A stretch of 64,000 bases of DNA from Octopus vulgaris (lineage: Eukaryota), in contig OX597836.1 in assembly GCA_951406725.2 (NCBI GenBank), positions 21,142,001 to 21,206,000 on the forward strand, in the 5' to 3' direction. Below, piece by piece: positions 1,862 through 52,757 of this stretch. Numbering within the stretch: position 1 is the first letter of the stretch; each line of letters begins with the position of its first letter. A program made the position numbers and the translations under genes. Below the pieces are notes generated by a model that was given only the letters and a program-made list of their open reading frames with translations, was not told where the DNA came from and made no database searches.

Positions 1862-1897
<36 letters not shown>

Positions 1898-2252
1898 TCA
1901 ATAAATGGTGGGGTTGTGTTGACCGCACGTGGAGAAATGATAAGCAAGGAAAAATTGTAAAAAGGCAGAATGCTAAATTGAAAGAAAATTTTAATGAAAA
2001 TAGGTGTATGGAAAATTTTGAAAAATTGATAAAATATATATATATTAATTCAAATCGGTTTTCGTCATAATGTGACTTTTCAAGAATTGTAAAGAAAAAA
2101 TTTTTTTTAAATGTAAGGAGGGGGGGGGGGGAGAAAATTACATTGCTTTTTGCAAAAAAATAATAATAAATATATACAAAAATTTAAAAATAGGTATTCC
2201 GATACATTGTAAAGTCTTTGTGTATGATAGTTCATGAAAAAATTACCTTGAA

Positions 2253-2453
2253 GAACAAATAAATCTCCCGGAATACCGGCAAATCCCACTGAATGACCAC
2301 ATAGACTCATGCGCTAAAGACAAAAATCCCAAATTCTACATATTCCCCTTCTACCAATGTAAAGACAGAATCACCACACAGGAGAGAATTAACAAGGAGA
2401 ATCTCTTTATTGAAAAATTCAAAACACATCTTAATATGCAAACTCCTCGTTGA
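2253..2453 (+). pseudogene. C-terminal part of PLE GIY-YIG endonuclease (truncated ORF, not in the ORF track)
   Basis: Stop-free 66 codons EQINLPEYRQIPLNDHIDSCAKDKNPKFYIFPFYQCKDRITTQERINKENLFIEKFKTHLNMQTPR*; H...C, R..KE..FI and terminal LN pattern typical of PLE GIY-YIG domains. Confidence 0.8.
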
Positions 2454-3128
2454 TCATACTTCTTTTTTCTACCTCATTCTTCATGGATGGACTAACACAA
2501 ATATATAAGGATACCATGCAGTCATCACTTCAAGCTAAAACTTATATTCTTTAAATATCATTATTATTATTGTTGTTATTATTATTATTATTTTTACTAT
2601 ATATGACATAACAATCTAAAATGTAATTATAAATTGGTTTATGCAAATTTATATAATTAGAAAACAATATAAATAAAGTGTTAAAATCTGAATGTTAAGT
2701 TAGCAAACAATTATATAAAAAAAATAATGCATATGAAGCTAAAATGATAATTTTATAATTTAAGGTTTATTAACACCCTTTATTACAAAAAATTGATAAA
2801 CACAAATTGAAGAGCTTAAAACCCATAGAGTTATCTCCCCTTATTCACAACACAGGAACTGGACTCTTACTACTTCCTGTTTTGCCATTCACTTAAGAGA
2901 CACCCTTAATTAAATTAAACAACACATGGATTTAATCCCATTGGATCTCAATACTTGAAGGTAATTTTTTCGTGAACTATCATTAAACTCAAGATACACA
3001 AAGACTTTACAATGTATCGGAGTACCTATTTTTTAATTTTTGTATATATTTATTATTATTTTTTGGCAAAAAACAATGTAATTTTCTTTTTACCCCCTCC
3101 TCACATTTAAAAAAAATTTTTTCTTTAC

Positions 3129-3170
3129 AATTCTTGAAAAGTCACATTATGACAAAAACCGGTTTGAATT
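3129..3170 (+). ncRNA. Degenerate hammerhead-like motif in PLE pseudo-LTR (mirror copy 2047-2088, minus strand)
   Basis: AATTC-TTGAAAA-GTCA catta TGAC-(G/A)AA-AACCGGTT-T-GAATT: stems I and II pair, stem III is palindromic, core is non-canonical. Confidence 0.5.
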
Positions 3171-3297
3171 AACATATATATATATATTTTATCAATTTTT
3201 CAAAATTTTCCATACACCCATTTTCATTAAAATTTTCTTTCAATTTAGCATTCTGCCTTTTTACAATTTTTCCTTGCTTTTATATATATATATATAC

Positions 3298-3351
<54 letters not shown>

Positions 3352-3912
3352 TCATCATGTTAAACCATTAATCCCAATGTATTTTCCTCTTTATCTCCAT
3401 TTTTTTCCTTCTCATGTCATTCTGTCAAAGAGTGTAGGCTTCAAATGTCAAAGACTTTTCCATTCTTTCCAAGCATCAAACTAATACACATACACGTTGT
3501 CCCCTTACCTGTCTTTGTCTTTTGTGTTCTGTACATTTGAACTATAAAAGAAGACAAGGTATAAATAATGGTCATTACATGTTTTTCCTTTATTAGAGTA
3601 AATTTAGCTTACACTTGCTTCCAATAGTCATTATAAGTACATTACTGACAGGTTTACTTAATTGGTCTACTGATCAGTTGAGAAAAATTGAAAGACCAAA
3701 AACAAAATGCTACTTATATCTGTATATTTTCCATAATAATTCCTTATTTCAAACTCAAATATTTACCTCTATTTAAGAGATATCCATAATATCCCAGAAA
3801 CAGCAGTAACACTATATATTTTCTCCTTATAAATGTCCTGAAAACTCCTCACAGCCTTGGCTTTGTTATCTCATTTTTATATATATATATATATATAAAA
3901 AAAAAAAAAAAA

Positions 3913-4217
3913 CCATCCAAGCATGGCCATTCGCCAGCCTCGTCTCGCACCTGTGTCGGTGGCACATAAAAAACACCATCCGAGCGTGGCCGAGCACCAT
4001 CCAAGTGGCCGTCTGCCAGCCTCGTCTGCCACCTGTGTCGGTGGCACATAAAATCACCCACTACACTCTCGGAGTGGTTGGCGTTAGGAAGGGCATCCAG
4101 CTGTAGAAACACTGCCAGATCTGACTGGCCTGGTGCAGCCTTCGGGCTCCCCAGACCCCAGTTGAACCGTCCAACCCATGCTAGCATGGAAAGCGGACGT
4201 TGAACGATGATGATGAT
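3913..4217 (+). repeat. RTE-3'-tail repeat with internally duplicated 5' module
   Basis: Two copies of gccagcctcgtct..cacctgtgtcggtggcacataaaa, then ggttggcgttaggaagggcatccagctgtagaaac..catggaaagcggacgttgaac(gat)n. Confidence 0.8.
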
Positions 4218-4348
4218 ATATATATATATATATATACAGATATAATTAATAAAAAAAAATGAAGAAAAAACACAAGAAAAAGAACAACAATGCGAGGATG
4301 TGATACATGCAAAGCATTAATAAGACACTCAGGGAAGGAAAGAAAGGG

Positions 4349-4385
4349 TGTTTTATGTTTTGAGCAAAGCTCTTCTTCAGAAACA
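4349..4385 (-). ncRNA. Minimal hammerhead-like motif in a short pLTR-like repeat (about 4255-4455)
   Basis: TGTTT-CTGAAGA-A-GAGC ttt GCTC-AAA-ACAT-A-AAACA; intact CUGAAGA; the G12A and stem III changes are both explicable as CpG decay of CGAAACGT. Confidence 0.6.
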
Positions 4386-6862
4386 GGAGACAGAGGAAAG
4401 TCCAAGAGAAAAGGAAAACAGAGGGAAAAAAAAAAAAAATCGCCAACAATCCATATGTAGTTACATATATGATGTATTTGTTTTGCAAGATTCCTGATGT
4501 GAAATCGTGCGTTGAAGCAGAAGTTGTTATATTTTGGGACATTTTGGTCATTTTTTCTTGCCAAATAAATACACACACTATGTATTCATTCTTCACTTGT
4601 TTATTATTGTTTTTTATTTTATGTCCATTGTCTTGAAATCTTTTGTTACACACCTGTGACCTCTTCAGCAAATCTCTATCCCACATGTCACCTCGTGTTC
4701 TGTTTAGTCCATTCTGTCTTTGTGTGGTGCCTATCCTTATCTGCATATGTGTGTCTGTGTGGGGGGGTTTGCTTACTATACTGTTTGTATCCATATAAAA
4801 TTCAGTGGGTAGTAAATATACAGAAGTCCATTGCATGTGTATATGTGTTTGTGCATGTGCCTGTGTCCACATGTCTCCTCATTGACACTGTTAGGTCAAC
4901 AGCGTGATGAGTGTTTATCTCCCTCCTGATACATCATACAAATTGGTTGGTTCCAACCTGTGCAAACCTATGGAACAAAATGTACTGTACTTAGAAAGAA
5001 GAACAGGCTGGCATCAAAAAATGATATCCAGCCAGGGAATGCTATCTCAAACAGTTTTGTCCAACCAATGCTAACTTGGGTGGGAAAATAAATTAATGTA
5101 AAACCACAATGAAGCCAATGACCAATATTGATTTTTTTTTTTCTTTCCTAACCACATAATTATTGCTTTTTGATGTTCTTGCATTAAACATGTTGTCACT
5201 AACTTAGTTACATTCAATAATATATTAATATCAAGCAATATTAAATATTATAAATACCAGTTTGAGACAGAAAAAAAAAAGAAAGTCTCATCGATGTGAC
5301 ATAACTCTTGTATCTATTACGTGCAAAGTCTGTTTCTCTTTTCTGTTTTAAAAATAAGTGCGTTTTGTGTGATGTTTCATACCACTTTACATTGGAAATT
5401 TTCAGAATTAATTCATTGATCAACTATTAATAGTTTAGACAGTACAGCAGTAGAGTGTTGAATTAGTAACTTTGTACACAAATGGCACTAATCATTAGCA
5501 CATCAGACAAAATACTTAGTGACATTTCTTCCAATTCATTATGTTCTGAGTTCAAATTCCACCTAGGTCAGTTGAGTACAGGGTTCAATGTAATTGACTT
5601 ACCTCATTCCTCATGTGCCAAAATCAGAAAGGAATTAATGTAGTAGGTGAGGTGGGTTGGGGGTGCTCTAAATTATAGATTTGAGTTCTTTGTAGAGAAA
5701 ACACAGGAGTTTTATAACAGAATATAAATTTTTGATTCTGAGTGCTGTATTCTAGTCATAATCATCATGCATTGAACACATTTTGCAGCACGTTGATGGC
5801 ACTAAAACAAAAGTCTTCCTGATAAAATGTGAGTTCTTCCATTGGATGAAGTCATAGCGCTACTTTGTTCTCACTTTCTCAAAATGTCTTCTTGGCAAAG
5901 ATATGAGAGTGGTTTATCACTGCCTTCCCCAATTGGATGGCCATTGGTCCACGAGGAGCCAATTGTTACTTCACCAAAAAAAAATCTGTTTAAGGAGTCT
6001 GAAGTCAGTCACATGTGCTACATATCCACTCCACTGCAACTGGAATTTTTATTTAGGCAAGTATACACGACCGAAAATTAATTAATGCTGTTGCCAGCAT
6101 CCACTCATCAGTTACATCCCAACCTAGTAACATTGAAGGTAGAGTCAACTTAAAAAGATTTTGCCAATTGTAGCAGTTATTTTGCCCTAGGTCATCCCTC
6201 ATTGAGCGGACCCCTCATCAAAAGGCATCTCAGCCATAACCATACCAGCTTTTGCTATCAGGTACAGTAGAAGTCAAGAATACATTAGCCAGTGTGATCT
6301 TTAGCAGAGTGTGATTTGTAAGAGACTCAATTGTTATTTCTAACAAGTCAAGCAGTCGCTTAGAGCTTCCCTCATTGACACAAGCTGTAGCTTTTTAACA
6401 TTCATGGTATTCAGTTTTTTATTTGTCTATTTTCCAAAACTACTTAATCCTCGTGACTCCCTGATAAGTGAAATAAAAAACACAGAAAAAAAAAGAAATA
6501 TAAACACTATTTTTCAATCTGTAAGTTCTGAATTTGCGCATTCTTCAAATGACCACTCTACAAAAAGAAAGTATGGAATAAATTGAAAAAAACCAATGCT
6601 TTTTTGGAAGATAAATAAAACTTCATTTAAGAATATAAGAACTGGCATTTGTCATTTGCTGGCACTGGAAAATTACTTAGATTGGATCAAAGGAAACCTA
6701 ACAAAATGGTAGCTGTCTGAAGTAGCATACATATTCAAGTAATTAATTAGGCAGAAATCATACCCAGATGAAAGCGAAGATTTCAATGCCTCTGTGAACT
6801 AGTATCCTTGCTTTATGAAGAGAAAGAATTGGATGCTGCAACAAGAAATTGAATAACTGTGC

Positions 6863-7378
6863 AGGCATAGGCATGGCTGTTTAAGAAGAAGTTTGCTTCC
6901 CAACTACATGGTTCCAGTTCAGTCCCACTACATGGCACCTTAAGCCAGTGGTTTTCAACCAGGGTTCCACGGAGCCTTAGGGTTCCGCCAGTACAGTCCA
7001 GGGGTTCCGCAAGAAGTTACAAAAATGCTAAAAGCGACAGTAATTTTTAATTCTCCTGTGCAGATATGTGTGCATAAGACAATTAAATTATTGCACAGGG
7101 GTTCCTCGAGCCAGTGAAATGTTTTCTTGGGGTTCCGCTCCAGCAAAAAGTTTGAAAAGCACTGCCTTAAGCAAATGTCTTCTACTATAGCTTCAGGCCA
7201 ACCAAAGGCTTGTAAGTGCATTTGGTAGATGGAAATTAAAAGAAGCCTGTCATGTGTGTGTGTGGAAGGGCGTGTTTGTATCTATCCTTCATCACCACCA
7301 TTTAACAACCAGTGTTGCCATGTCTATGTCCCTGTAACTTAGCAGTTTGACAAAAAGAGAACAACAGAATAAGTAGCA
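6863..7378 (+). repeat. Old copy of the major tRNA-headed SINE, interrupted by a hAT-like MITE
   Basis: aggcataggcatggctg..cagtcccact..catggcacctt[MITE]aagcaaatgtcttctactatagc..gaagcctgtc; colinear with 32458-32883. Confidence 0.8.
6946..7164. mobile_element. hAT-like MITE (non-autonomous DNA transposon)
   Basis: TIRs cagtggttttcaacc / gtttgaaaagcactg and a perfect 8-bp TSD ccttaagc (6938-6945, 7165-7172). Confidence 0.9.
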
Positions 7379-8335
7379 TGATTTGCATTTTGGCTTCTGG
7401 CTTTTTTTCCTTCCTAAAGTCAGTAGAGTGGTAAGAAAGAGATTTGGTTGTTATTTCTAGCAGTTCATCTGACAGCATATAATCAATTTTTATCTTCTGG
7501 TGCAAGCTATAAAATTCTCCCAAAAGACTGAAGATATTACAACTGTAAACCACATCAAATACGATATCCTGTTTTCAATTACAATATACAGAAGCAATGC
7601 CCCAAATGGTTACATAGCATTAATTACCATAATGGCTCCAAAGATAACAAATTATATGTAATTGGGATGAAAGAACCTATAAATAGTTGAATCTAATGGT
7701 ACTTTTATGCTGTGAAATATCTGCATGTGCATGCACACTATTATGTAACCAGTTTACAAAGGGAATAAAACTACATACAAAACTAAATGCACACATTCAT
7801 TACTCATGCACCTAGTAATGTTCAAGACTGAAAATACTGTGCAAATTTATGTTCTGAACAACCCTAAATGTCTTGATGGTCTTTTAATTTATTTTATTTA
7901 TTTATCACAGTTTGGTGGACAATAGCATCAATGGTTGCAAGTTTTGAAGAGGTCAATCATTGGTTCAAGTATTTCTGATGGTGAGAGTAACATGTCTATA
8001 ACTGAGTGCTGAACAAATACGATGACTTCATTGCACAAAACAATGCCAGTTATGCATGTGTATGTGCGTATAATTATATATACATATGTGTACATACACA
8101 CATATATGATGGACATAATTCACTGCGTACATGTGTATGTGTGTGTATGAAGGTAGTATAGTGGGATGTGTAACATCAGTGTGCACATTCAACAAAGTGC
8201 AAATGTATTGAAAGAAAATTTAGGCATAAGAGGAATCAGATGCAGCATGCAAGACGACGTTGGTTTGGACATATGATGCATATGAACAAAGACAGCTGTT
8301 TATAGAAATGGCACCAAACATATACACACACATAC

Positions 8336-8380
<45 letters not shown>

Positions 8381-9337
8381 ATGGGCTTCTTTCAGTTTTC
8401 GTCTACCAAATCCACTCACTGAGGCTATAGTAGAAGACACTTGCAAAAGGTGTCATGTAGTGGGACTGAACCCAGAACCATGTGGTTGGTAAGCAAGCTA
8501 CTTACTGCACAGCCACTCCTGCACCTATGCATACTGTATTTTTTAACACTACATCTTTAAAAGGTTCTTACCCAGATGAAAAACCACAGCTCCTGACATT
8601 CAACAAAATCTAAGAGCCAGTGTCAGCTTTGATGTGATTTCTACAGCTGGTGCCATTCCTAATGCCAACCACTTCACAGAGTATACTGGACGTTTCTTTC
8701 ATGGCACTGGCACTAGTGAAATCACCAAGTAACTTGCAAGAAAGCACACTCAACTATGTGAAGATGTAGTAGAGAGGGAGGTAGCATTATGCCCAGTGTT
8801 GGGAAGCTAAAGTATGATACAGGAACAGAAACTTGCCAACACACTATAATGACTGTTAGTGGACAATGTGACTAATGTTTTTAGATGTTGTTGTTGACTT
8901 TCATCAGTTGTTCTATCACTTTCACCTGCCCAGGTAGATTGAATACAACTAAGCTGATTACATATAAGTATTTTCAATAATAACAAAGGGTAAAATTAAT
9001 TAATTAAGAAGTAATCAATAATTTCACCAAGCAGAATTCGGCATGAATTTCTATATTCTTTATACCGATCTAATTCCGAAACGCACGTCCATGGATGACC
9101 AGATATTGATTGATTTTCGTTACTTTTCCTCTCTGCCTGTGTGAATTGTTTTCAAGTATTTTGGTTTCTCTGGGAGTCCCTTTTTAAAGTAGAAGAAATA
9201 GCTAAGGTTTTTGGCTGCTATTTCTAAACTTCGGTATGTGGTAAAGCAAATCTTTGCTGAACCCTAATTATTAAGTATAAGTATTTTCACATATATTTAC
9301 AAGATATCAATTCATGAACACTGATTTCTTGTTCCAG

Positions 9338-10423: not shown

Positions 10424-10810
10424 GGCATAGCTGTGTGGTAAAAAGTTTGCTTCCCAACCACATGGTTCCAGGTTCAGTCTCACTGCACGGTATCTTGGGC
10501 AAGTGTCTTCTACTATAGCCTTGGGCTGACCAAAGCCTTATAAGAGGATTTGGTAGGCAGAAACTGAAAGAAGCCTGTTGTATGTGTGTCTTTGTGTATG
10601 TCCCTCACCACCATTTGACAACTGGTGTTGTGCTATGTGCCTGTGACTTAGTGGTTCAGCAAAAGACCCCCATTATAATAAGTACCAGGCTTAAAAAAAG
10701 GTACTGGGATCGATTCATTTGACTAAAAAGTTCTTCAAGGCGGTGCACCAGCATGGCCACAGCCTAATGACTGAAAACCACACAAGTAAAAACAAGTAAA
10801 AGCTAAAAGA
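10424..10810 (+). repeat. Major tRNA-headed SINE, older copy
   Basis: Colinear with 32458-32883 from head (ggcatagctgtgtggt) to tail (atgactgaaaac..aagtaaaa). Confidence 0.85.
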
Positions 10811-11546: not shown

Positions 11547-11585
<39 letters not shown>

Positions 11586-11663
11586 TTCAAAATGTGACCT
11601 CGTGTGTACCGTTGTCGATTTTTTTTCTCTGTCTTCCCTTCTCTGGATCTTTCCTTCTCCTAT

Positions 11664-11698
11664 GTTTCCGACAAAGAGCTCCACTCGAAACGTTAAAC
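11664..11698 (+). ncRNA. Minimal hammerhead-like motif in pLTR-like repeat 11588-11788 (relative of 4255-4455)
   Basis: GTTT-CCGACAA-A-GAG ctcca CTC-GAA-ACGT-T-AAAC; repeat bounded by (TA)n on both sides. Confidence 0.55.
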
Positions 11699-11787
11699 CC
11701 TCCTTCTTTCCTGAGCATCCAATAATACTATATTTGTTCCACGTCCTCGCGTTGTGTTTTTTTGTGCTTTCTTGTTTGGATTAACTT

Positions 11788-11823
<36 letters not shown>

Positions 11824-12159
11824 TATACGACAGGCTTCTTTCAGTTTCCACCAACCAAATTCACCTGGATGGCTTTGGTCGACCCAAGGCTTAAAATAGA
11901 AGACACTTACCCAAGGTACCACACACTGGGACTGAACTCAAAACCACATAACTGAGAAGCAAACTTCTTAACCACACAACCTTGCCTATACCTATTCATA
12001 TTTTTGCATTTATTTTGGATATAAATAAACCCAAGCAAGACCAGGTACAGCTGCTAATTTATTTATAAATAAATTCTTTACATATCTATATACAGATATA
12101 GATGTACATGCTCACAACACATGCACATATACTCAAATTATCATAATTATGATACTCAC

Positions 12160-12213: not shown

Positions 12214-12490
12214 CTGAAAATAGACAGTTTATTTTTAAAGTTAAAATATTCACAACGGGTGCTTCATAAGATAAAACTATAAAATAAAATAACGATAATT
12301 AAAAACACGTGTAATTTAAGCTGGATCAAAATAGGTCATAGATATTGATTCCTTTCAGATATACACAATGCCAAAATTGCTATTTTGACCCAGGTCAGTC
12401 AACCCTGAACGAATAGCTAAAGACATTCCAGCAACGACCATTCTGTCCTCCTCCCTGGTATATATATATATCCTTGTTTTTTTCTGTGTA

Positions 12491-12528
12491 TCTTTCTGTC
12501 GAAGAGCATAGGCTCGAAACGTAAAAGA
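12491..12528 (+). ncRNA. Minimal hammerhead-like motif in pLTR-like repeat 12471-12626 (older sibling at about 3405-3545)
   Basis: TCTTT-CTGTCGA-A-GAGC atag GCTC-GAA-ACGT-A-AAAGA; (TA)n on both sides. Confidence 0.6.
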
Positions 12529-12624
12529 CTTTTTCTATTTCTATTCCTGAGCACTATACTAATACATTTATTTGTTTGTACTCCACCTGCCTTCGTCTTT
12601 TGTTTATTTTCGTAAACTTTCCCG

Positions 12625-12657
<33 letters not shown>

Positions 12658-14035: not shown

Positions 14036-16654
14036 AACAACAACATTTTAATACACCTATGATTAGCAATTTATAGGTTGAAGAATTCATCACTGTATGG
14101 TTTATAAACAGTATAACACAATGTGAATTAAACATAAAAATAGTGTAACCACATAGTGTAAACAGTATTAGTACAACCACTTATTATGTTCCTCCCACCT
14201 CATATAAATATTTTCAGAGTCAAAGCAAACAGAGTAAAGTACTACTAGAACTATGTGACATTTCCTTACAAAGGACAATAAATAAAAGTCAACATCTTCA
14301 TAGATTGACTTAGACTTTATAAATGTTTTTCATGACTTATTTGTCACTTATTTTTCTTCTTTATCTGTCATAGATTTGTGGAAAAGGTCATATTATTGAA
14401 TTTACAAATTTCATTGTATTTCAAATAGATTTTTTTATATCATATTTTGTGAACAATTATAGTATTGTAGGTTACAGGCAGCCAATGATGGGTTAATGGG
14501 AGAGAAATCAAGGGTTTATTGCATTTACAATGACAATTATGATGAGGGATGTGTAACTCAGGAAAAGCAAAAACTGCAGTGTTTTGGTTCAAAAGCACTG
14601 GTTTATTGGTTTTTCTCACCAATATTTATCATCAAATTATGTGTGGATGTTTATACAAATCATTATATATATAGCAAGCTGGCAGAATCATAAGCACGTC
14701 AGGCAAAATGCATAACAGCCTTTCTTTCAACTTTATGCTCCAAGTTCAAATAGCATTGAGGTCAACTTTGCCATTCATCTTTCCAGGGTTTATAAAATAA
14801 GTACCAGTTGAGCTCTGGGGTTGATGCAATTAACTTCCATCTCCTCTCAAAATTGCAGGCCTACAGTCAAAATTATGAAGAATTGTGTGTATGTGTGAAC
14901 ATTTTCCATGCTGGTATGAGCTGAACGGATTGTCACTCTACTACAGGTTAGAGAATTACACATTGCCCTAATATTTCATTTGATATTGTTTATATGGCTG
15001 GATGCCCTTCCTTACAACAATTCCTTAACTGAGTGTAACTAGATGCTTCAGCACTGGAAAGGTTATCAAGTTCTTGATAAGACCAAAGAGTTTTCTCTAC
15101 TTTACATTCTCCATTCATACAAGACAAACATAACTAAGACAGTACCTAAGGATACATAAAAGGGTCCATCACAGACACACACACATATATATTACAAATA
15201 TACATATATATATGTTTGTATATATATATATTTATATAAGGAAGCAGTCAGAATTTTGGATAATTCTTTATTAGTGCTTTCATTCATTTATGGAACTCGT
15301 CAAAACAAAATCACAATGATAAAAGCAGAATGTTTCCTTGTTCATTTATATGAACCAGCTGTTTTGCTTTGTTTAGAAGAGGAGAAAAGTATTTTTGTTT
15401 TCATTCTTTCTTTTTTGTGTCTTTCCTTACTAATGATCAGCCATTTTGTAAGGAAAAACACAAAAAAGAAAGAAAAAAACAAAGGACCACTGAATATTTG
15501 TTGTATTGGAAAAAGAGGGGAAGAGAGAAAGAAAGCAAAGAGGGGGAGAAAATAAACAGAGAGAGAGAGAGAGGTTTCAGTATAACTGAGAAAGAAAAAA
15601 GTGAAGGATGGAGATAGAGAGAGGGGGTTTTCTTTTCAATTTGATGTGTTCAACCCATTGAAATTTCATTACAAAACATTTTTTTTTCTTTTTTCTCTTC
15701 CTCCTCTTATACAACATATTTGTAAATAGACACATTTTCTCACAAGGGCTAGGTGACCTTTCAAGATGTCATTTTTAGGAAGTAGGATGGAAAAAATAAG
15801 AAAAGAGGGGTGCAGTAATCACTGAAAAATAAATAAGTGTTCAAAGTCCTATGAAAATGTATATTCCTTTATACTTGTATAGTCAAATCCCAAATTCTGT
15901 ATAATTCCATTTTTTGCAAGAACAAACATTAAATATAAGTACAACATTCATAAATTAGAAAAATAAAGTCAGAATATAAAAAATAGCTTAAGTTTGGTAC
16001 TGTTTATAATTCAATTTATTCTCTGTTTAATCAAACAGCATAAATAAGTTGTGTAATAACATGTATATTATATATTTAGCAGGAAACCACTCTATAGGAT
16101 ATAAACTATATAACAAAGCAGGGCCTGCTTAAATATATTTTTGAGTATCTTTCCATCCTTTTGTAGGATTTATTTTTATTTTTCTTGCTTGCTTGGATAA
16201 GATAATTCAAAAGAGATATTTTTTTACAAATTACTTTACCAAGTAGCTACATTAGATATCTTTCCCAATCAGTGGTAAAATGATTCTAGTATTCTTTCTC
16301 AGGTTCTATATGAACAACACTTGTCAAAATCACATTGTTCTATATATATCTGATCATTTATAGAGTATCACATTATTAACACTGGAGCCACATTCAGAAA
16401 CAATAGTAACATTGTAATATAAATGTTTTCTCTTAATAAAGTATTAAAATGACCATGAAGAAGCTTTCTTGACAGACACCAAAACCATCTAGCTTACATT
16501 GATGTCACCTTACATGCAGGATTGGATTTAAACCACAGGGGGTCTGGGGCACTTCAAATTCGTTGGGCACTTCATATACAAGAATTAAAATCTTGGAAAA
16601 TTAGCCAATTACAATCTCAAAACCCATGTATTGCATGTAATGAATTTGATGTGT

Positions 16655-31242: not shown

Positions 31243-31495
31243 TATACTGTCAACTCTATTAGTATTGCAGCGTGGAAGGTGTTTATAAGCAATTTAAGAA
31301 ACACACAAAAACAGTTAGATTCACTTCAACATTTAAATTTGATTTGCCAAAATATTTTCATCGCTTTGAGACCACAACCTGTTCACTGACAAAATTCCAT
31401 GCTGCATCTCAGAATTTTGTCAGTGAACAGGTCGTGGTCTCAAAGTGACGAAAATATTTTGGCAAATTAAATTTAAATGTTGAAGTGAATCTAAC
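31243..31495. mobile_element. Asymmetric fold-back element (84-bp arms 31314-31397 / 31412-31495, 14-nt loop), probably pLTR-derived
   Basis: Arms are near-perfect inverted complements; the right arm has a hammerhead-like topology tttgtca-GTGAACAG-GTCG(T)..(T)GAC-GAA-AATATT-T-tggcaaa. Confidence 0.7.
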
Positions 31496-31775
31496 AGTTC
31501 ACAATCTCAGATCAGGTCACTTGCTATGCAATTACATCTCCGTAATTTATTAGCATTATTTAGAAGATAATCTTTTAATGTAAAGTATGTTTGTCTGTGT
31601 TTTTGTTTAGCCCATAGTTGCCTCTGATGTGGCAGACCCATTGCATAGCTTCTTTTTGTTTTGTTTTTTTTTTCTTCCTGAAATACTGTAAATCTGTTTT
31701 TCTTTTGATGAAAGTGTGTGTGTTTTAAGAGAGTTTGGCTGCTATTTGTAGTAGCTCAAGTTACCACAAAGACAC

Positions 31776-38830: not shown

Positions 38831-40052
38831 CATAAACCAAGGGAGATAGTGGTCTACATGGGTTCAGGAGGCTACTCATTATTTACATGAGCTATGGTAT
38901 TCTGAACAAACAAAACTCATTTCAATAAAGTTTAATGTATCACGAGAAGAAAATTCTAGTGTTAAGACAACATTGTTGTACAAAAAAAGAGTAGCAACTA
39001 GTATAAACAGTATATTTAGGATGGTGTAATTTGATGGGGTCATTGGTTGCTTTTTCTCATAGCCAGGTGACTATATAAATGCTCCCTTGTTAGCTTGTTG
39101 TTCAATAGTTTCACAAATACATACAGCTGAGAATAATGATAATGCTGGGATTAGATGGAGTACAATTTACAGGGTGTTTCAATAGTGATGGACCTCTCTA
39201 TTTCACATAGCTTTACTTTCCAAAAGCCACATAAAACAACTAACAAAAATCCATTCTAGGTTGCCTCGTTATACTCAAATTAAAAATGCAAAGCCATTTC
39301 AAACATTTGGAAGGCATAAATTAATAGAAAATAATTAGAGAAAATATTTTACTTTAAACACAGCAATAGCTGAAAAGAAAGAACAAGATAAAAATTCTTT
39401 CTGATTTCTATAATGAAATACATCACTTGTAAGAAAAATATTAATTGCTTAAAAATAAAAAGCATCAAAAAAAATTTATTTCATTAACAATTCTAATTAA
39501 ATTAAAACTGATGAGAAATTACAGTGCAACATCCTTGATCTGGCTCTCAGCTACAAAAGGTTTTAAAACAGATTCTGTAAACCATAGCAAAGTCTTGATA
39601 TTGTAGCATCAAAATAAAATAGATTTATTCTATCAGAAGTAAATTCAATTACAAATAAATAAATTGATGGCTAATTTATTAACATGGTGTTTGTTATCGA
39701 TGTCATTTAGCTTCAAACCAGCCTTCAATGAGCAGACCTATAATCAAAAGGTATTCCACCTATGATCATCCAATCTTATTTTGAGACATAGCACATCCTA
39801 AGACCAAGTTATTGAATATATCGTTTTTGTTTTTTTTTAAAGCAGTGTAATTTGAGGGAAATTTGACTAATATTTCTAGCAAATCAAATTACTATGTAGC
39901 TGCTTGTAATTCCATATTAAGCTACAGGTAAGACTTGACCCAACAGATCTAAGATCAATGAAATTCAATTCATGATCATCCTGTTTTTGTTTTTTTTTCT
40001 CTTAAAGCAGTGTAATTTGAGGGAGATGTACTCATTATATTGAAAAGACCCA

Positions 40053-43138: not shown

Positions 43139-43295
43139 AGGCTGTGTGATAAGTAGCTTGCTTACCAACCACATGGTTCCGGGTTCAGTCCCACTGCGTG
43201 GCATCTTGGGCAAGTGTCTTCTGCTATAGCCCCGGGCCGACCAATGCCTTGTGAGTGGATTTGGTAGACGGAAACTGAAAGAAGCCTGTCGTATA

Positions 43296-43332
<37 letters not shown>

Positions 43333-43555
43333 GTGTGTGTTTGTGTGTCTGTGTTTGTCCCCCAGCATTGCTTGACAACCGATGCTGGTGTGTTTACGTC
43401 CCCGTCACTTAGCAGTTCGGCAAAAGAGACCGATAGAATAAGTACTGGGCTTACAAAGAATAAGTCCCGGGGTCGATTTGCTCAACTAAAGGTAATGCTC
43501 CAGCATGGCTGCAGTCAAATGACTGAAACAAGTAAAAGAGTAAAAGAGAGAGAGT
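43139..43555 (+). repeat. Young major SINE lacking the first ~11 nt of the head
   Basis: Colinear with 32458-32883 from ggctgtgtg onward. Confidence 0.9.
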
Positions 43556-43957: not shown

Positions 43958-44006
<49 letters not shown>

Positions 44007-45258
44007 GAATAGCAATTGCGAAACCGGTCGATATATTAAAAATTATATTAAAACCATGTAAGTGTGCATATTTTCCTTTTTTAATTTCTTATATATATAT
44101 ATATATATACACACACGTGTGTGTGTGTAGAGAGAGAGAGAGAGAGTAAGAGAGTGAGAGAGACAGACAGAAACACATGCATTCACCACCACACTTTTAG
44201 AGCTTCTAAATACTGTATCACTTCCCAAGATCTTTTGGTTTTTTTCCTAAAAACATTCTTAGATACCAAGAAATTCTAAATCTAAACAGCGTATTAGGAG
44301 AGGCTATTACATATACATATATATATATATTATATATGATTTATTATATATAGGAAGTGATGGACAGATATTGTGAATATTTTGAAGCTTACCGAGACAT
44401 AAGTGACAGACAAAAACCTACCTCTAGGCTATAATATGCATGAATTACAAATAACATTTCTTTCCCACTTCAAACCCTGAGGACTAATAGATAGATAGAA
44501 CTTTATTTTTCTTTTAACTCTGTCCGTCTGTATCTCTAACTCTCTCGAGATATATATATATAGAGAGAGAGAGAGTGGTACAAATGTGTGATTAAGAAGT
44601 ATGCTTCCCAACTGTGTGGTTTTGAGTTCAGTCCCACTGCGTAGCACCTTAGGCAAGTGTCTCTCTCCTACTGCAGCCTCGGACCAACCAATGCTTCATG
44701 ATTGGATTTGGTAGACAGAAAATTAAAGAAGCTTATCGTCTGTCTGTGTATGTATTGATGGCTAGAAGGAAGGAAGGAGAGAGGGAAGTGCTGCATCACA
44801 CAAGTAGTGTTGTCCATTTCCAATCTTCTGACAAAATATGTCCGGACATAGAGATATAGTGCTTTGGAAACAGGTGAGGGTAAGCATCAGGAAGGGTAGC
44901 TGGCCATAGAAAATCTGTCTTCAAGATTTTAAAGTTGTGATTGTTAATTCGTAGAATGACAATGTAGGGGAGGTGTGAAAGGCCAGATTTGGCCGTTTTG
45001 AACATAAAATAGGTAGAATATTTGGGCCTGATATCTTCTACTTGTTTCAGTCATCAGGTTGCGGCCATGCTGGGGCACTGCCTTGAAAAATTTTTCAGTC
45101 AGATGAATCAACCTCAGTACTTACTTTTTAAGCCTCATCCTTACTCCATCCGTCTCTTTTATCAAACTAAGTTACAGGGATGTAAACACAAAAACACCAG
45201 TTGTCAAGCAGTGAGGTGGGGGACAAACACAGATGCAAAGATATATACAAATAAATAC

Positions 45259-45710
45259 ATATAAATTAAAGGAAGAGGAAAACAAAACCAAGGCAGGGCA
45301 AGCTTATTAGATCATTCAAATTATTTTAATTATTATAATGGTGCTTTCAAGTAATCAAAAGTAAATAATAATGTCTAGCAGCTGTTTCTGGGATATCCCA
45401 GATAATGGATCGATGTGATGACCAACATTTCCATATACTGGGTATTCTGTCATTGGAGACAAGATATATAAGCAGGAAATTTCTATGTGAGAAAATTTAA
45501 ATGATCTGATAAGCTTATCCTGCCTTGGTTTTGTTTTCCTCTTCCTTTAATTTATATCCGCTGACTCAGAAGTAGGCTATATGACTCCCCAGCTCTGTCC
45601 CCCATTGTGAACATGGGTCCTAGTGGCTTATCAATTGGAGCACTTACACAGCATGCCTATTAGTTTGGATCACTAGTGGCCTAAACCCTTTCTTATTCTC
45701 TCTCTCATAT
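45259..45710 (-). mobile_element. Asymmetric fold-back pLTR-like element (arms 45259-45322 / 45494-45557)
   Basis: ~64-bp inverted arms; the spacer holds a minus-strand hammerhead-like motif at 45372-45461 (TGTCT-CCAATGA-long stem II-GAA-ACAGCTGC-T-AGACA). Confidence 0.6.
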
Positions 45711-45711: not shown

Positions 45712-46049
45712 GTACCCGGTATGGGCCCCTATCCAGGGTTACGGAAAAGGAGACAACCTTGAAAGAAATCCGGAGTGGAGCCCTGTAGGTGGTTTAGTGT
45801 TCAACTCGACACTCTTCCGGCAGCTCCTGCAACCAAGCTGGTGCCAAACGCAATGCTCTGCATTCCTTTAGACTACATCAGCAAGGTTGAGAGAGGAATC
45901 CTAACGATTGGGCTACCCAGGATTTTCTTACATCTAGCCCAGGCCTGCGCAAAACTGGAGAGGAAACTGGAGAGGACATGAAATGTAAAAACCAGACTGG
46001 ATTAGTTTATGCGCAACTCCATTGTCTCCCGAGACAAAAAGATGCCAAC
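45712..46049 (+). repeat. GC-richer repeat fragment, possibly a LINE 5'UTR
   Basis: Abrupt GC/CpG increase between AT-rich flanks; no credible ORF; assignment from resemblance only. Confidence 0.3.
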
Positions 46050-46279
46050 ATATATACATACACACACACACATGATGGGCTTCTTTCAGTTTCCATCTGC
46101 CAAATCAACTCACAAGGCTTTGGTTAGGGCTCCATGCTATAGTAGAAGACACTTGCCCAAGATGTCACGCAGTGGGACTGTACCCAGAACCATGTGGGTG
46201 GGAAGCGAGCTTCTTGCCATACAGCCACGCCTGCAACTATATGCCCAGTTTAATAATTAACATTTTATATGTCAATAAA

Positions 46280-47256: not shown

Positions 47257-47310
47257 TTCCCATGCCGGGAATCGAACCCGGGCCGCCTGGGTGAAAGCCA
47301 GGAATCCTGG
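47257..47310 (-). tRNA. tRNA-Glu-TTC: 5'-truncated tRNA-Glu(TTC) pseudogene
   Basis: AGGATT-CCTGG-CT TTC AC-CCAGG-CGGC-CCGGG TTCGATT CCCGG-CATGGGA-A: perfect anticodon and T arms and 3' acceptor strand; 5' acceptor strand and most of the D arm absent; no CCA. Confidence 0.9.
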
Positions 47311-47354
47311 TTCAGTTTCTTGGGGAAAATTACAGTTAAAATATTGAGTGGTTA

Positions 47355-47980: not shown

Positions 47981-48365
47981 TATATAAAATGAAAATATAC
48001 AGCAGTTTGCAATGTTTTACCAAAAAGGAAGACGTAATTGTCACTAAATGCAACTAGGTTGTTAGAAACACCTACATTGCTAGAAATAAGAGCTAAAATG
48101 ATCTAATGCTGTTGTCAAGGCACATAACTGTATACATATATACAGACAGGGACTATAATCATCCAAAAACACCGTTTGAAAATTCCTTATACTGAATTCA
48201 GTTTCAGCAATTTCCGTTGCCTCGTTAGTAAGGACTGGCTCTACTTCAGATGATTTCAGACTTACTTCTCTGTTTTTATATATGTTTTCATCATAGAAAT
48301 CTATGGATGATTTAGTAAATCGCTAATGTGTATACATAAAATTGAAATATACAGCAGTTTGCGAT
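47981..48365 (-). mobile_element. ~352-nt direct-repeat-bounded unit with a hammerhead (retrozyme or pLTR-like)
   Basis: aaatatacagcagtttgc at 47993 and 48345; inserted in a TA/CA tract; contains the motif at 48184-48234. Confidence 0.6.
48184..48234 (-). ncRNA. Type I hammerhead ribozyme motif, one core substitution (G5A)
   Basis: TCCTTA-CTAACGA-GGCAA cggaaa TTGCT-GAA-ACTG aatt CAGT-A-TAAGGA: 6-bp stem I, 5-bp stem II, 4-bp palindromic stem III, GUA cleavage triplet. Confidence 0.8.
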
Positions 48366-48452
48366 ACACACACACAACAGGCTTCTCATATTCTGATTAG
48401 CAAATCTACTCACAAGGCTTTGATTGGCCTGGGACTATAGTAGAAGACACTA

Positions 48453-49892: not shown

Positions 49893-49929
<37 letters not shown>

Positions 49930-50209
49930 ACACATACATAAACATACATACACACATACAAAATGGGGTTGTTTTAATTTCTATCTACCAAATCAACTCA
50001 CAAGGCTTTGGTCAGCCCAGAGCTAGAAAAGACATTTTGCCCAAGATATCGTGCAGTGGGACTGAACCCAAAACCAAGTGGTTAGGAAGAAAACTCTTAA
50101 ATCACACGGCCATGCCTGCACCTAATCTTTTTTGTTTTTTGTTTTTTTGTTCTTTTTTTTTTAAGTCATCTGCACTGGTACAAGCAAGGAATCTCAACTT
50201 AGAATCAAA

Positions 50210-50645
50210 ATTGAGTTATAGACACAATTTCCCAACAATTCTCTACGTCATTACCATGAGATTCCAAACAAAAGTGGCTAATGAAGATTCTTCTTAATTT
50301 GTAACCAAGACAAGAATTTGAAAGGAAAGAGTAATGCGAAATCACTTTAGTGTACAACCCACAGATAAAACAAAATGCCTTCAGCAAATCAAATTCGGAA
50401 GCTAAGAATAGTTAGTCAAATACTTTGATCAATTTAGCCACCAATTTTTTTTTTTTTGTTTTTGCTTTTACATCATGCATTTTGTGATCAATAGCTGTAT
50501 TGGTTATAGGTTTCCAATGAGCCAATTACTGGTTTACAACATTTCTGATGGTGAGAATGATAAGAGTGTCCATGCAACTCATGCAGAATAAATACAAGGT
50601 AGTCTTAGTTTGGTATGATGGTTTTATTGCCAATGTGTGTGCCTA
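50210..50645. repeat. Unclassified ~450-bp repeat, copy 2
   Basis: Colinear with 46280-46740. Confidence 0.85.
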
Positions 50646-50892
50646 ACTTTTGCTCAAAGAATCAGACATTCACAAGCGATTAGCTGAACCAAAGCTACAA
50701 TAGAAAACACTTTACCCAAAGTGCCACATAGTGGGATCAAAGCCAGTCATGCATATACCAAGCTAACTTTTGTCTTAAGAAACATAACAAAAGACTAAAA
50801 TTGATTATTTACACCATAGTGTATGTGTGTGCACATATATACATACATACACGCACACATATACATCTCTATATACATACACACACATAGAC

Positions 50893-52230
50893 CATCATCA
50901 TCATTTAACGTTCATTGCCCATGTTGGCATGGTATGACCAGAGCTGGCAAGCTGCATCAGACTCCAGTCTGATTTGGCATTGCTTCTATGGCTGGATGCC
51001 CTTCCTAACACCAACCACTTTACAGAGTGTGCTAGGTGCTTTTACGTGACACACAGGTGCTTTTATGGGTGCTTTTACATGGTACCACATGGGCACTTTT
51101 ATGTAGTGTCGCACAGGCACACTTTTACATGGCATCGCACGGTCTCTTTTACATGACACCACACTGACACCTTTACATGTCGCCGTATGGGCGCTTTTAT
51201 GTGCCGCCATACAGGCACTTTTACATGGCACCACATGGGTGTTTTTACATGGTACCACATGGGCACTTTTATGTAGTGTCGCACAGGCACACTTTTACAT
51301 GACACCACACTGACACTTTTACATGCTGCCGTATACATGCTTTTATGTGCCACCATACAGGCACTTTTACATGGCACCACACAAGTGTTTTCACATGGTA
51401 CCACCATGCTTTTACATGGTACACTTCTGTTACTGAGTATGGGTCTTCTTGAGCACAGCAAGGTGCTAAGTACTTCAGTCCTTTGTCATCTCACCTGAAA
51501 GGTTCAGCTTCCTGAGGTCATTCTTCAGTACTTAATTATGTCTTCTTGAGTCTCCCACTTCCGTGTGTTTCATCCACTTTGAGAGATAAGCACTTCTTTA
51601 CGGAGCTGTCGACATCCATCCACATCTAATGACCAAACCAGCACAGTCTTCTCTCTTGCACACAGCAACCAATTCCTCTTATGCCTAACTTCTCTCTCGA
51701 AACACTGGCATTCTGTCAAACATGTACACTTACATTACATATCCAATGGAGCATTACTAACCTCGTTCTTTTCTAACCTTTGCATGTCCTCTGCATTCAG
51801 AACCCACATCTCACTACCATGTAGAATTGCTGTCCATATACATGCATCATACAATCTTCCTTTCACTCAGAGAGAGAAAACCTTTGTAGCCAACAGAGGT
51901 AACAGCTCTCTGAATTTCCTCCTTCCTATTCTTATTCTAGCTATCACACTCTCTGCATTTCCTCCCCCCACCCCTACTACTAATTTAGTCCCCTAGGTAG
52001 CAGAAATTATTTACTATCTCTAATGAGCCACCTAGGCATTTGAGAGAATCACTTTCCCAAGTCTCTAAAGTTTTTATAGATCCTGTACATCTTCCACATA
52101 TGAAAACTATCTTCTCTGACAAACTTCCAATTAACCCACTGCACCATATGTACACCATATGGAATTCCTGCCTACACCTTTCCTACAAATCGAACAGGAC
52201 CACCTACCTGAGATGGGTAGGGTCCTGCCA
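50893..52230 (-). mobile_element. 5'-truncated RTE-clade LINE: ORF C-terminus, 3'UTR with minisatellite, (GAT)n tail
   Basis: Decayed translation GRWSCSICRKGVGRNSI..FICGRC..LEIVNNFCYLGD..ARIRIGRRKFRELLPLL..KGRLYDAC..LHGSEMW..QERRLCWFGH..GSGRLKKT; ends gaacgttaaat(gat)n. Confidence 0.9.
51034..51425. repeat. ~20-25-bp minisatellite with a higher-order duplication inside the LINE 3'UTR
   Basis: Roughly 17-18 monomers of (g/a)cttttacatggcaccaca type; 51073-51243 is repeated at 51244-51390 minus one monomer. Confidence 0.9.
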
Positions 52231-52259
52231 GTTTTACATACACACACACAAACAAACAA

Positions 52260-52290
<31 letters not shown>

Positions 52291-52294
<4 letters not shown>

Positions 52295-52757
52295 GAAATA
52301 TTAAATTTCTAAATCTCTCATAGAGATATGTACGGTGGTGGGGCGATAGAATGGTTGTATACTGTCAATCTAACGTGAACATGACAGTAGGGGGTTACAC
52401 CACCGCTATTTAGCTCTAGGAGGCATCGACGCCTCCTGATGGCTTTGACACATTTTTCCTGTGTCCTTATATACATTTATGAAGGGGAGACAAACACCCC
52501 CAGCAGCCAGGCCTGCATCTAGAGACACGCATGTTTCTGGGGGACCGATGAAGGACAATGATCCTGAAACATGCGTGTCTCTAGATGCAGGCCTGGCTGC
52601 TGGGGGTGTTTGTCTCCCCTTCGTAAATGTATATAAGGACACAGGAAAAATGTGTCAAAGCCATCAGGAGGCGTCGATGCTTCCTAGGGCTAAATAGCAG
52701 TGATGTAACCCCCTACTGTCACGTTCACGTTAGATTGACAGTATACAACCATTCTAT
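52291..52757 (+). mobile_element. Asymmetric fold-back element: 192-bp arms (52346-52537 / 52566-52757) with a hammerhead-like core at the axis
   Basis: About 6 mismatches by eye, all transitions; the 28-nt loop and right arm read CCGATGA-AGGA caatga TCCT-GAA-ACA tgcg TGT-C; (TA)n on both flanks. Confidence 0.8.

What the first reader, a model, noticed from the sequence alone, without database searches (positions are those of the whole stretch)
1876..52757. Many unrelated (TA)n-embedded repeats each carry a minimal hammerhead-like fold: a diverse Penelope/retrozyme system
Seen: the topology stem I / 7-8-nt core / stem II / GAAA / short, usually palindromic stem III / H / stem I' recurs in different primary sequences at 2047-2088(-) and 3129-3170(+), 4349-4385(-), 11664-11698(+), 12491-12528(+), 15269-15311(-), 31415-31467(+), 45372-45461(-), 48184-48234(-) and 52542-52582(+), with partial versions near 9065-9095, 44006-44035 and 4645-4675. 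Stem III palindromes differ (ACGT, AACCGGTT, AATATT, ACAGCTG., ACTGAATTCAGT) while pairing is kept. Known: PLE pseudo-LTRs and non-LTR retrozymes encode minimal type I hammerheads with palindromic stem III that can cleave as dimers. Inference: this genome holds a large radiation of hammerhead-bearing non-autonomous elements, at roughly one per 6 kb here, that would usually be annotated as unknown repeats.
Basis: partly seen in the sequence, partly recalled or inferred. Interest (0 to 1): 0.85.

Follow-up and report, generated by a model that had tools for sequence, protein, structure and literature searches.

The report
Penelope hammerheads with rewired catalytic cores
This animal genome is strewn with an estimated 100,000-plus end-pieces of Penelope-type jumping genes whose RNA is predicted to fold like a small self-cutting hammerhead ribozyme, a known pairing, but several large families carry fixed changes in the catalytic core, which would make them a natural test of whether cutting matters for jumping.

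Summary
All 10 main sites and 2 of 3 partial sites lie in multi-copy repeats whose family majority forms a minimal type I hammerhead with a palindromic stem III; most window copies are decayed or truncated. A descriptor finds 30 hits in 1 Mb of evenly spread genome against 0-2 in shuffles. Three families (B, A, J) sit just downstream of Penelope-like GIY-YIG endonuclease ORFs; most others show inverted twins or one-sided tails. So these are Penelope-element (PLE) hammerheads, a kind published in 2014 and noted before by this scan on other genomes; they are not tandem retrozymes, not all non-autonomous, not all unrelated, and the genome average is about 1 per 20-25 kb, not 1 per 6 kb. What goes beyond the papers I could read: the core 3:8 pair takes all four Watson-Crick forms (C:G, U:A, A:U, G:C), U4C recurs in three families, and one ORF-linked lineage of about 50,000 copies has A6U fixed while varying only at the two positions hammerheads leave free. 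Cleavage is untested; one key paper (Lunse 2017) was not held.

The parts
1896..2253 (-). Family B: inverted 5'-truncated twin copy, ending in a 46-nt one-sided tail (1896-1941) next to (TA)n
   Evidence: 1942-2253 matches 3279-2954 at 90%; tail absent from the + copy
2047..2088 (-). Family B hammerhead, U3:A8 core, one change in the stem III palindrome
   Evidence: U3 and A8 in 34 of 34 copies
2253..2453 (+). C-terminal end of the family B PLE ORF (end of GIY-YIG endonuclease)
   Evidence: translation; longer copies give RT + C-X4-C-XX-C linker + GIY-YIG
3129..3170 (+). Family B hammerhead in the 3' end of the direct copy (2253-3279), U3:A8, this copy G12A
   Evidence: about 680 bp after the ORF stop
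3390..3525 (+).
   Evidence: 72% to family A reference; keeps U6
3745..3850 (+).
   Evidence: homologues in L274 and L160 carry the full motif
4349..4385 (-). Family G2 hammerhead (element about 4278-4447), canonical core, this copy G12A and broken palindrome
4645..4675 (-). Old repeat with a CUGANGA core and 6-bp stem II but no clear stem I or palindromic stem III; inconclusive
   Evidence: 10 copies aligned
9049..9200 (+). Family I, 5'-truncated copy holding only the 3' half of the motif (9065-9095); full copies have a canonical core and a compensatory stem I change
11664..11698 (+). Family G hammerhead (element 11585-11786), U4C subfamily, this copy also G8A
12491..12528 (+). Family A hammerhead (element 12471-12625 between TA runs), A6U core; this copy matches the family majority in core and stems
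   Evidence: ORF link
15269..15311 (-). Family F hammerhead (element about 15219-15384), 8-nt core (extra base at 2/3 with U3.G8, or extra U), decayed copy
31264..31551 (.). Family H head-to-head twin insertion with a one-sided tail; not a MITE
   Evidence: arms of unequal length in 20 loci and single-arm copies
31416..31466 (+). Family H hammerhead within one arm: G3:C8 swapped core, 7-bp stem I, 5-bp stem II; mirror copy at 31343-31393 on the - strand
   Evidence: G3 in 42 and C8 in 40 of 44 arms; 0 of 3000 shuffles reach its score
44004..44089 (+). Family J, 5'-truncated copy (motif part 44006-44035); full copies have an A3:U8 core and 2-bp stem II
   Evidence: A3 and U8 in 25 of 25 copies; GIY-YIG end upstream in 3 of 20 loci
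45372..45461 (-). Family D hammerhead (element 45259-45557 with a short inverted twin), long branched stem II closed by a 1x1 mismatch, U4C in 15 of 27 copies, decayed copy
48184..48234 (-). Family C hammerhead (element about 48035-48343), canonical core in the family, this copy G5A; 12-14-nt stem III palindromes differ between subfamilies
52542..52582 (+). Family E hammerhead in a head-to-head twin (52346-52757), U4C core, first stem I bases lost at the inversion point
   Evidence: C4 in 24 of 27 copies

Best explanation
These sites are the 3' ends of many families of Penelope-like retrotransposons (three shown to lie downstream of an endonuclease ORF, the rest likely kin), each carrying a predicted minimal hammerhead that would cut its RNA only weakly, as a dimer and likely with help from the element's protein. 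Shown: repeat families with a fixed 3' end and ragged 5' ends; RT, Zn-finger-like linker and GIY-YIG ORFs upstream for B and A, the GIY-YIG end for J; head-to-head inverted twins and one-sided tails; conserved stems with varied sequence; lineage-fixed core variants (U3:A8, A3:U8, G3:C8, U4C, A6U, an 8-nt core). Inferred: two RNA copies pair through the palindromic stem III into a double hammerhead; cleavage 3' of position 17 is slow, so most templates that the RT copies into (TA)n-rich targets are uncut; the master elements were under selection to keep a cleavage-competent geometry, and the core variants are tolerated hypomorphs; the genomic copies themselves are dead and decaying. Short families with a fixed 5' end near the motif (H, G, young A) are likely non-autonomous passengers.
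For: ORF link: 16 of 30 B loci extend into the ORF, Pfam RVT_1 E 6.9e-5 and GIY-YIG E 4e-4; 17 of 30 loci found with the second lineage's GIY-YIG DNA have family A on the same strand 126-721 bp downstream against 1 opposite and 1 upstream (chance about 1.6% per locus); J in 3 of 20 loci. PLE hallmarks: inverted twins B 7/30, C 6/30, D 7/25, E 15/25, F 5/20, J 3/20, H 20/20, tails, as described in PMC8557442. Fold: 21 and 30 descriptor hits per Mb against 0-1 and 0-2 in five shuffles; family references H, A, E 0 of 3000, J and F 1 of 3000 shuffles; across 16 representatives stem pairs take 3-6 pair types and 3:8 is C:G 10, U:A 3, A:U 1, G:C 1, U.G 1; stem I pair changes on both sides in 7 of 12 A/G/G2 copies. 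Constraint pattern: in 87 family A copies, clade-shared changes inside the motif fall only on N7 and H17 (0 of 30 constrained columns against 18 of 67 flank columns, p=0.001); H17 is A 61, U 20, C 3, G 2. RNAcofold gives the double hammerhead for B, C, E, J. A PLE hammerhead cleaved only with its protein, and uncut RNA was the main insertion template (PMC11167929); the G3:C8 swap is the one core double change that rescued activity in a full mutational scan (PMC9901934).
Against: No cleavage was measured. Both Pfam scores are below the curated cut-offs (23.1 vs 29.6; 21 vs 22.6 bits). No ORF was found for C, D, E, F, G, G2, H, I. No full-length element with two pLTRs was fetched. RNAcofold did not give the double hammerhead for 6 of 10 references (A, D, F, G, G2, H). 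Published single changes in the CUGA turn give low activity (PMC9901934), A6C slows cleavage in Mg2+ by orders of magnitude (PMC7151607) and U4C lowers it considerably in vitro (PMC3088659), so A, D, E, G may be inactive. 5' ends do not pile up at the cleavage site (1 of 53 unbiased pieces within 3 nt). The 4-nt loop II of family A is also invariant, so the conservation may reflect protein binding rather than chemistry. The generalised descriptor was written after seeing the variants and fixes G5, A9, GAAA, U16.1 and non-G 17 by construction. Family tallies lean on best hits that resemble the query.
Confidence: 0.75

Rival explanations
1. Same elements, but in the variant lineages the hammerhead has stopped cutting and is kept as an RNA pairing and protein-binding signal: the palindromic stem III joins two template RNAs on a dimeric RT-endonuclease, which favours head-to-head twin insertions.
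For: The palindrome and stems are kept in every family while U4 and A6 drift; the A6U lineage and U4C subfamilies are the most numerous (18 and 6 whole cores per Mb); no 5'-end peak at the cleavage site; twins are rare where the palindrome is 4 nt (A 0/30, G 1/25) and common where it is 6-14 nt (36 of 125 in B, C, E, F, J); catalytic mutants of a PLE hammerhead inserted normally in vitro and the protein is predicted dimeric (PMC11167929).
Against: N7 free, G17 avoided, G8/G12/A9 kept and 3:8 always paired is what cleavage chemistry predicts (PMC3884650 for G17). The twin comparison rests on 2 related against 5 other lineages with different proteins, so it is not independent. PLE clades without hammerheads also make inverted twins (PMC8557442).
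Confidence: 0.2
2. The repeats are non-LTR retrozymes: non-coding tandem units that self-cleave into monomers, circularise and are re-inserted.
For: Type I minimal motifs in 150-300-bp non-coding units; retrozymes are argued to derive from PLE pLTRs (bioRxiv 10.64898/2026.07.22.740005).
Against: No tandem array of these units in the window; same-strand neighbours in only 0-5 of 20-30 loci per family; copies end at a fixed point 60-200 nt past the motif and not at the cleavage site; A, B, J continue into ORFs.
Confidence: 0.04
3. The folds are chance patterns in AT-rich repeats and hairpins (for 31415, a by-product of a MITE palindrome).
For: Loose descriptors give 4 hits per shuffled window; no Rfam hammerhead hit; 31415 lies in a 190-bp near-perfect hairpin.
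Against: 30 against 0-2 per Mb; per-family shuffles 0-1 of 3000; the H motif pairs wholly within one arm, and arms are unequal with single-arm copies.
Confidence: 0.01

Closest known systems
Minimal hammerheads (min-HHR) in pLTRs of metazoan Penelope-like elements (Cervera and De la Pena 2014, PMC4209133)
   Same: Type I topology, short or palindromic stem III, optional extra base after A9, mostly G10.1-C11.1, many families per genome, mostly single truncated copies, some inverted pairs; U3:A8 variant already described there for Schistosoma Cercyon elements.
   Different: The alignment of representatives in its supplement (Fig. S3, the rows I saw) shows only CUGANGA, UUGANAA and one UUGANGA core; none has A3:U8, G3:C8, C4 or U6. 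Estimated number here (about 75,000 near-intact, 110,000+ by homology) is above the 2,000-9,000 per genome given there, with a looser descriptor.
Short-stem-III hammerheads that cleave as dimers (Lunse, Weinberg, Breaker 2017; seen only as a title in reference lists)
   Same: PLE association and dimer cleavage, by its title and by the review PMC6765202.
   Different: Not held, so I could not check whether it already lists these core variants; this is the main uncertainty in the novelty call.
Neptune/Nematis-type EN+ Penelope-like elements (as described in PMC8557442)
   Same: C-terminal GIY-YIG after a CX2-5CxxC linker, (TA)n bias, 5' truncation, inverted twins, one-sided tail.
   Different: No tree was built, so Neptune versus Nematis is not resolved; full-length copies not examined.
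Natural hammerhead core variants (Perreault 2011 PMC3088659; Naghdi 2020 PMC7151607)
   Same: U3:A8, a change at position 6 (A6C, phage), U4C (viroid) and insertions near C3 (salterns) are known and weakly active.
   Different: Those are single or few sequences; here variants are fixed in families of thousands of copies, and A6U, A3:U8 and G3:C8 were not in the passages I read.
Non-LTR retrozymes (bioRxiv 10.64898/2026.07.22.740005; PMC7229834 listing only)
   Same: Type I hammerhead in short non-coding PLE-derived units.
   Different: Retrozymes are defined by head-to-tail arrays; these are dispersed monomers or head-to-head twins, and three families are ORF-linked.

Membership tests
EN+ Penelope-like element | RT followed by C-terminal GIY-YIG endonuclease upstream of the motif | tested here: met
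   Family B: RT piece with YLDD (RVT_1 E 6.9e-5) and GIY-YIG (E 4e-4), both under the curated cut-offs; family A: 17 of 30 ORF loci; family J: EN end in 3 of 20 loci
EN+ Penelope-like element | ORF link for families C, D, E, F, G, G2, H, I | tested here: inconclusive
   No contiguous ORF within 1.0-1.5 kb flanks of best hits; only best 40 candidates are scored, so long copies may be missed
EN+ Penelope-like element | Fixed 3' end, 5' truncation, inverted 5' twin, one-sided tail | tested here: met
   twins rare in A (0/30) and G (1/25)
EN+ Penelope-like element | Full-length copy in partial tandem forming two pLTRs | not tested
   No full-length element was fetched
Neptune/Nematis clade | CX2-5CxxC linker before the GIY-YIG | tested here: met
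   C-X4-C-XX-C in lineage B and in the A-linked lineage
Neptune/Nematis clade | RT phylogeny with reference PLEs | not tested
   No reference PLE proteins were fetched
PLE minimal type I hammerhead | Stems I and II plus palindromic stem III, above chance | tested here: met
   not met for the 4645 family
PLE minimal type I hammerhead | Canonical CUGANGA or the known UUGANAA core | tested here: met
   Families C, I, G2 and older G (canonical), B (U3:A8)
PLE minimal type I hammerhead | Canonical core in families A, D, E, F, young G, H, J | tested here: not met
   A6U 77/79; U4C 15/27, 24/27, 28/44; 8-nt core in F; G3:C8 in H; A3:U8 25/25 in J: filed as variants, not plain members
PLE minimal type I hammerhead | Self-cleavage after position 17 as a dimer | not testable with these tools
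   Only contigs were available; dimer fold predicted for 4 of 10 references
Rfam hammerhead families | Covariance-model match | tested here: not met
   No hammerhead among 110 matches at E<=10 in the window; family majorities were not scanned
Non-LTR retrozyme | Head-to-tail arrays of two or more motif-bearing units | tested here: not met
   only the window and best-hit loci were examined, not the whole genome
Non-LTR retrozyme | Circular RNA intermediates | not testable with these tools
   No raw RNA reads were offered
MITE (considered for 31415) | Symmetric terminal inverted repeats of fixed length | tested here: not met
   One arm runs about 60 nt further, and single arms occur

The most novel reading that the evidence does not exclude
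One genome holds a natural mutagenesis screen of the hammerhead core run by retrotransposons: all four Watson-Crick pairs at 3:8, repeated U4C and a roughly 50,000-copy lineage with A6U held under selection. These cores, weak or dead by the protein-free rules, work because the PLE protein completes the active site, or the fold has been turned into a dimerisation signal that sets twin insertion; standard CUGANGA searches miss this whole class.
Probability: 0.3. Interest if true: 0.78.

Novelty: new variant of a known kind. Interest (0 to 1): 0.52.

Why it matters
What the hammerhead does for Penelope-like elements is an open question: Craig et al. call its function unclear, and in the one in vitro system it cut only with protein and was not needed for insertion. 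Successful, ORF-linked lineages with fixed A6U, A3:U8 and U3:A8 cores, and short families with U4C or G3:C8, give ready-made natural variants to ask whether chemistry or only shape is selected. A natural G3:C8 and A3:U8 would be evolutionary support for a tertiary pair so far swapped mainly by hand. Practically, 11 of 26 credible high-scoring hits in the 1-Mb sample have C4, U6 or A3:U8, so published descriptors would undercount these motifs. The basic association itself is known and ordinary.

Tried and rejected
Rfam scan of the window: no hammerhead. My first reading of 31415 as a MITE hairpin artefact was wrong and was dropped. Single-copy descriptor hits at 57218 and 21093 were rejected as chance, and one G:C hit in the 1-Mb sample (L322) as a (TG)n artefact. 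Looking for motifs downstream of other decayed PLE ORF remnants in the sample (L187, L201, L204, L215, L217, L345 and others) found no descriptor hit of a known family. An RT remnant 850 bp upstream of a G2 copy (L067) lacks the endonuclease and is interrupted, so it was not counted as a link; likewise an EN piece near C copies in L088. A pile-up of 5' ends at the cleavage site was sought and not found. Expression: no RNA holder listed on record; laying coded runs gave contigs only, which cannot show starts, ends or strand; they only show that families A and H occur in other runs and list no common change at G3/C8 or U6. Literature: searches for natural A6U, A3-U8, G3-C8, G3C8/A3U8 with 'hammerhead' and for octopus or cephalopod plus Penelope plus hammerhead/ribozyme returned no paper describing these variants in PLEs; Lunse 2017, Hammann 2012, Seehafer 2011 and Przybilski and Hammann 2007 were not held, so absence from print is not established. 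A planned further 200 kb of sample could not be fetched, so density rests on 1.0 Mb.

Full report
Setting. The window is G000:C23:21142001-21206000 of a 2.8-Gb animal assembly in 227 contigs, 35% G+C with many (TA)n runs. The repeat make-up reminds me of cephalopods; that is recalled, not tested. Hammerhead numbering below is the standard one (core 3-9, 12-14, 15.1:16.1, cleavage after 17).

Checking the observation in the window. Rfam found no hammerhead among 110 matches at E<=10. My first descriptor (core CUGANGA or UUGANAA, optional base after A9) gave 0 strict hits; 4 with one core change against a mean of 0.17 in 12 block-shuffled windows; and 9 against 4.2 when loosened to two changes and one palindrome mismatch. 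So single decayed copies cannot be told from chance at the looseness they need, and 7 of 13 sites passed no setting. The question had to be settled on families.

Families. I searched the own genome with 11 window stretches (best 40 candidates scored each time; 10-30 loci examined). A (12491; 2429 candidates): core with U at 6, 4-nt palindrome. B (2047, 3129; 1776): U3:A8, 8-nt palindrome. C (48184; 1474): canonical core, 12-14-nt palindromes whose centres differ between subfamilies. D (45372; 373): long branched stem II closed by a mismatch, C4 in 15 of 27. E (52542; 2316): C4 in 24 of 27, 6-bp stem I, 10-nt stem III with one wobble. F (15269; 1150): 8-nt core. G (11664; 3571): C4 in 28 of 44, older copies canonical; G2 (4349) canonical. 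H (31415; 4694): G3 in 42 and C8 in 40 of 44 arms, 7-bp stem I and 5-bp stem II inside one arm. I (9065; 1274): canonical, window copy lacks the 5' half, a stem I pair changes on both sides in 2 of 16 loci. J (44006; 1114): A3 and U8 in 25 of 25, 2-bp stem II; window copy truncated. The 4645 family (2509) has a core and stem II but no clear stem I or palindrome in 10 copies. These tallies lean towards copies like the query, and H arms come in pairs. A, G and G2 are related: their outer stem I pair is C-G, G-C or A-U, changed on both sides in 7 of 12 copies (1 of 500 shuffles; relatedness inflates this control).

Chance and density. I fetched 100 evenly spaced 10-kb stretches. With the first descriptor, 400 kb gave 3, 7 and 12 hits against 0, 0-1 and 1-3 in three shuffles. 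A generalised descriptor, written after seeing the variants (any pair at 3:8, C or U at 4, A/U/C at 6, at most one deviation), gave 21 and 30 hits in 1.0 Mb against 0-1 and 0-2 in five shuffles; it fixes G5, A9, GAAA, U16.1 and non-G 17 by construction. Shuffling single family references, 0-1 of 3000 reached the observed score for H, J, F, A, E. By homology, ten window families give 53 pieces per Mb, 39 covering the core; in that unbiased set 17 of 18 A cores have U6, 6 of 11 G cores have C4, 2 of 3 H cores have G3:C8. Extrapolated: about 110,000 whole cores of these families, about 50,000 of A, about 75,000 near-intact motifs of all families; these are rough. Descriptor hits scoring 9 or more in all fetched DNA fall into 18 clusters of 135 hits. 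The window is about four times richer than average. Nine of 13 sites are within 200 bp of a (TA)4+ run.

What carries them. Window 2253-2453 translates as the end of an endonuclease. In 16 of 30 B loci homology runs upstream into an ORF with RT, a C-X4-C-XX-C linker and GIY-YIG (Pfam RVT_1 E 6.9e-5 and GIY-YIG E 4e-4, both under cut-off), about 680 bp before the motif. A second lineage, 30% alike in protein, has the same linker and GIY-YIG; of 30 loci found with its ORF DNA, 17 have family A downstream on the same strand, all 17 with U6, 1 has it on the opposite strand, 1 upstream and 11 none. J follows a GIY-YIG end in 3 of 20 loci. No ORF was tied to C, D, E, F, G, G2, H or I. Head-to-head inverted partners occur in B 7/30, C 6/30, D 7/25, E 15/25, F 5/20, J 3/20, H 20/20 (D and H queries contained both arms), A 0/30, G 1/25; same-strand partners in 0-5 per family. 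B in the window and H in 20 loci have a tail on one arm only. These are the structural marks of PLE insertions given by Craig et al. 2021 (PMC8557442; passages and one supplement search), who also tie the linker to Neptune and Nematis and discuss it as a possible cause of microsatellite bias. I first took H for a MITE; unequal arms and single-arm copies starting 10-15 nt before stem I show a twin insertion of a short element.

Is the fold under selection? In 87 family A copies on a tree built without N7, H17 and CpG columns, clade-shared changes inside the 36-nt motif occur only at N7 (to G, U, A) and H17 (to U, twice); 0 of 30 constrained columns against 18 of 67 flank columns (p=0.001; 15 of 64, p=0.002, without indel columns). 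Position 17 is A 61, U 20, C 3, G 2, the G count being background. Those are the two positions hammerheads leave free, and G17 impairs minimal hammerheads (PMC3884650, passages). Against reading this as proof of chemistry: few independent events, and loop II is just as invariant.

How it most likely works. Shown: elements, ORF links for three families, fold, variants. Inferred: element RNA folds stems I and II; two copies pair through stem III into a double hammerhead (predicted by RNAcofold for B, C, E, J, not for the other 6 of 10); cutting after 17 is slow and probably protein-assisted; RT copies mostly uncut RNA into AT-rich targets, often as twins. This fits Frangione et al. 2024 (PMC11167929; passages): no cleavage without protein, partial rescue by C3G/G8C, catalytic mutants insert normally. 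It fits the lack of 5' ends at the cleavage site here (1 of 53). Expected activity by family: canonical C, I, G2 and swapped H best; U3:A8 known; A3:U8, U4C and A6U weak, since other changes in the CUGA turn had low activity in a full scan (PMC9901934, passages), A6C is very slow in Mg2+ but good in Mn2+ (PMC7151607, parts 1-2 of 4) and U4C is slow in vitro yet sufficient for a viroid (PMC3088659, passages). The main rival is that variant lineages keep the fold only for pairing or protein binding; twin frequency is lower where the palindrome is 4 nt (1 of 55 against 36 of 125), but lineages are few and not independent.

Comparison and novelty. Cervera and De la Pena 2014 (PMC4209133; text parts 1-2 of 4, supplement parts 1-2 of 3) describe this motif class, its abundance, family diversity, inverted pairs and U3:A8; the representative cores I saw there include none with C4, U6, A3:U8 or G3:C8, but their descriptors could not have found them. 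Li et al. 2026 (bioRxiv, parts 1-2 of 5) define retrozymes by tandem arrays, not met here. A squid genome paper counts 235 Rfam hammerhead loci (PMC6962438, passages). Two reviews were seen as passages. Six searches found no report of these variants in PLEs, but Lunse 2017 and three other core-variant papers were not held. Earlier notes of this scan report the same kind on other genomes; none for this genome or for the H sequence.

Verdict. Real, mostly known, with a variant worth testing: new variant of a known kind, interest 0.52.

Noticed in passing
window 7165-7378, 8315-8533, 10424-10800, 11782-12003, 18129-18530, 32456-32884, 34225-34544, 43133-43555, 46047-46243, 54561-54971 and others: A very abundant SINE-like family (about 20 copies in the window, 70-92% alike) starting at (TA)n/(CA)n runs; a weak tRNA match at 47257-47325 lies beside one copy. 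No hammerhead descriptor hit.
   Followed up: no
window 242-432, 4019-4244, 50865-51059, 58706-59139: Another abundant repeat ending in (GAT)n then (TA)n (311 hits in fetched DNA); 58706-59139 is a head-to-head inverted pair like the PLE twins but shows no hammerhead.
   Followed up: partly
window 38444-38891 and 51065-51422: Minisatellites with 29-bp and 24-bp units.
   Followed up: no
window 20281-20431 and 29733-29818: Old low-copy palindromes (76-78% arm identity) with no hammerhead motif and almost no homologues in fetched DNA.
   Followed up: partly
window 56408-57028 (+): 207-residue open frame whose second half looks like a piece of a LINE-type ORF (by eye; not searched).
   Followed up: no
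L298, L334, L198, L194, L210, L082, L220, L300, L202, L016, L135, L295, L278: At least ten further hammerhead-bearing families outside the window, several with U3:A8, 2-bp stem II or very long stem II loops; L298 holds a young inverted pair.
   Followed up: partly
L045 and L049: RT-like ORFs of a different PLE type (DKA-like motif, resembling Naiad by eye) inserted next to family B copies.
   Followed up: no
L013, L019: Family A copies flanked by apparent target-site duplications of about 16 bp in non-microsatellite targets.
   Followed up: no
window 45372-45461 (-) and 3745-3850 (+): The D lineage keeps a 1x1 mismatch between the core and stem II, and in family D the 3' strand of stem II is itself a 14-nt palindrome that could drive an alternative dimer.
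   Followed up: partly
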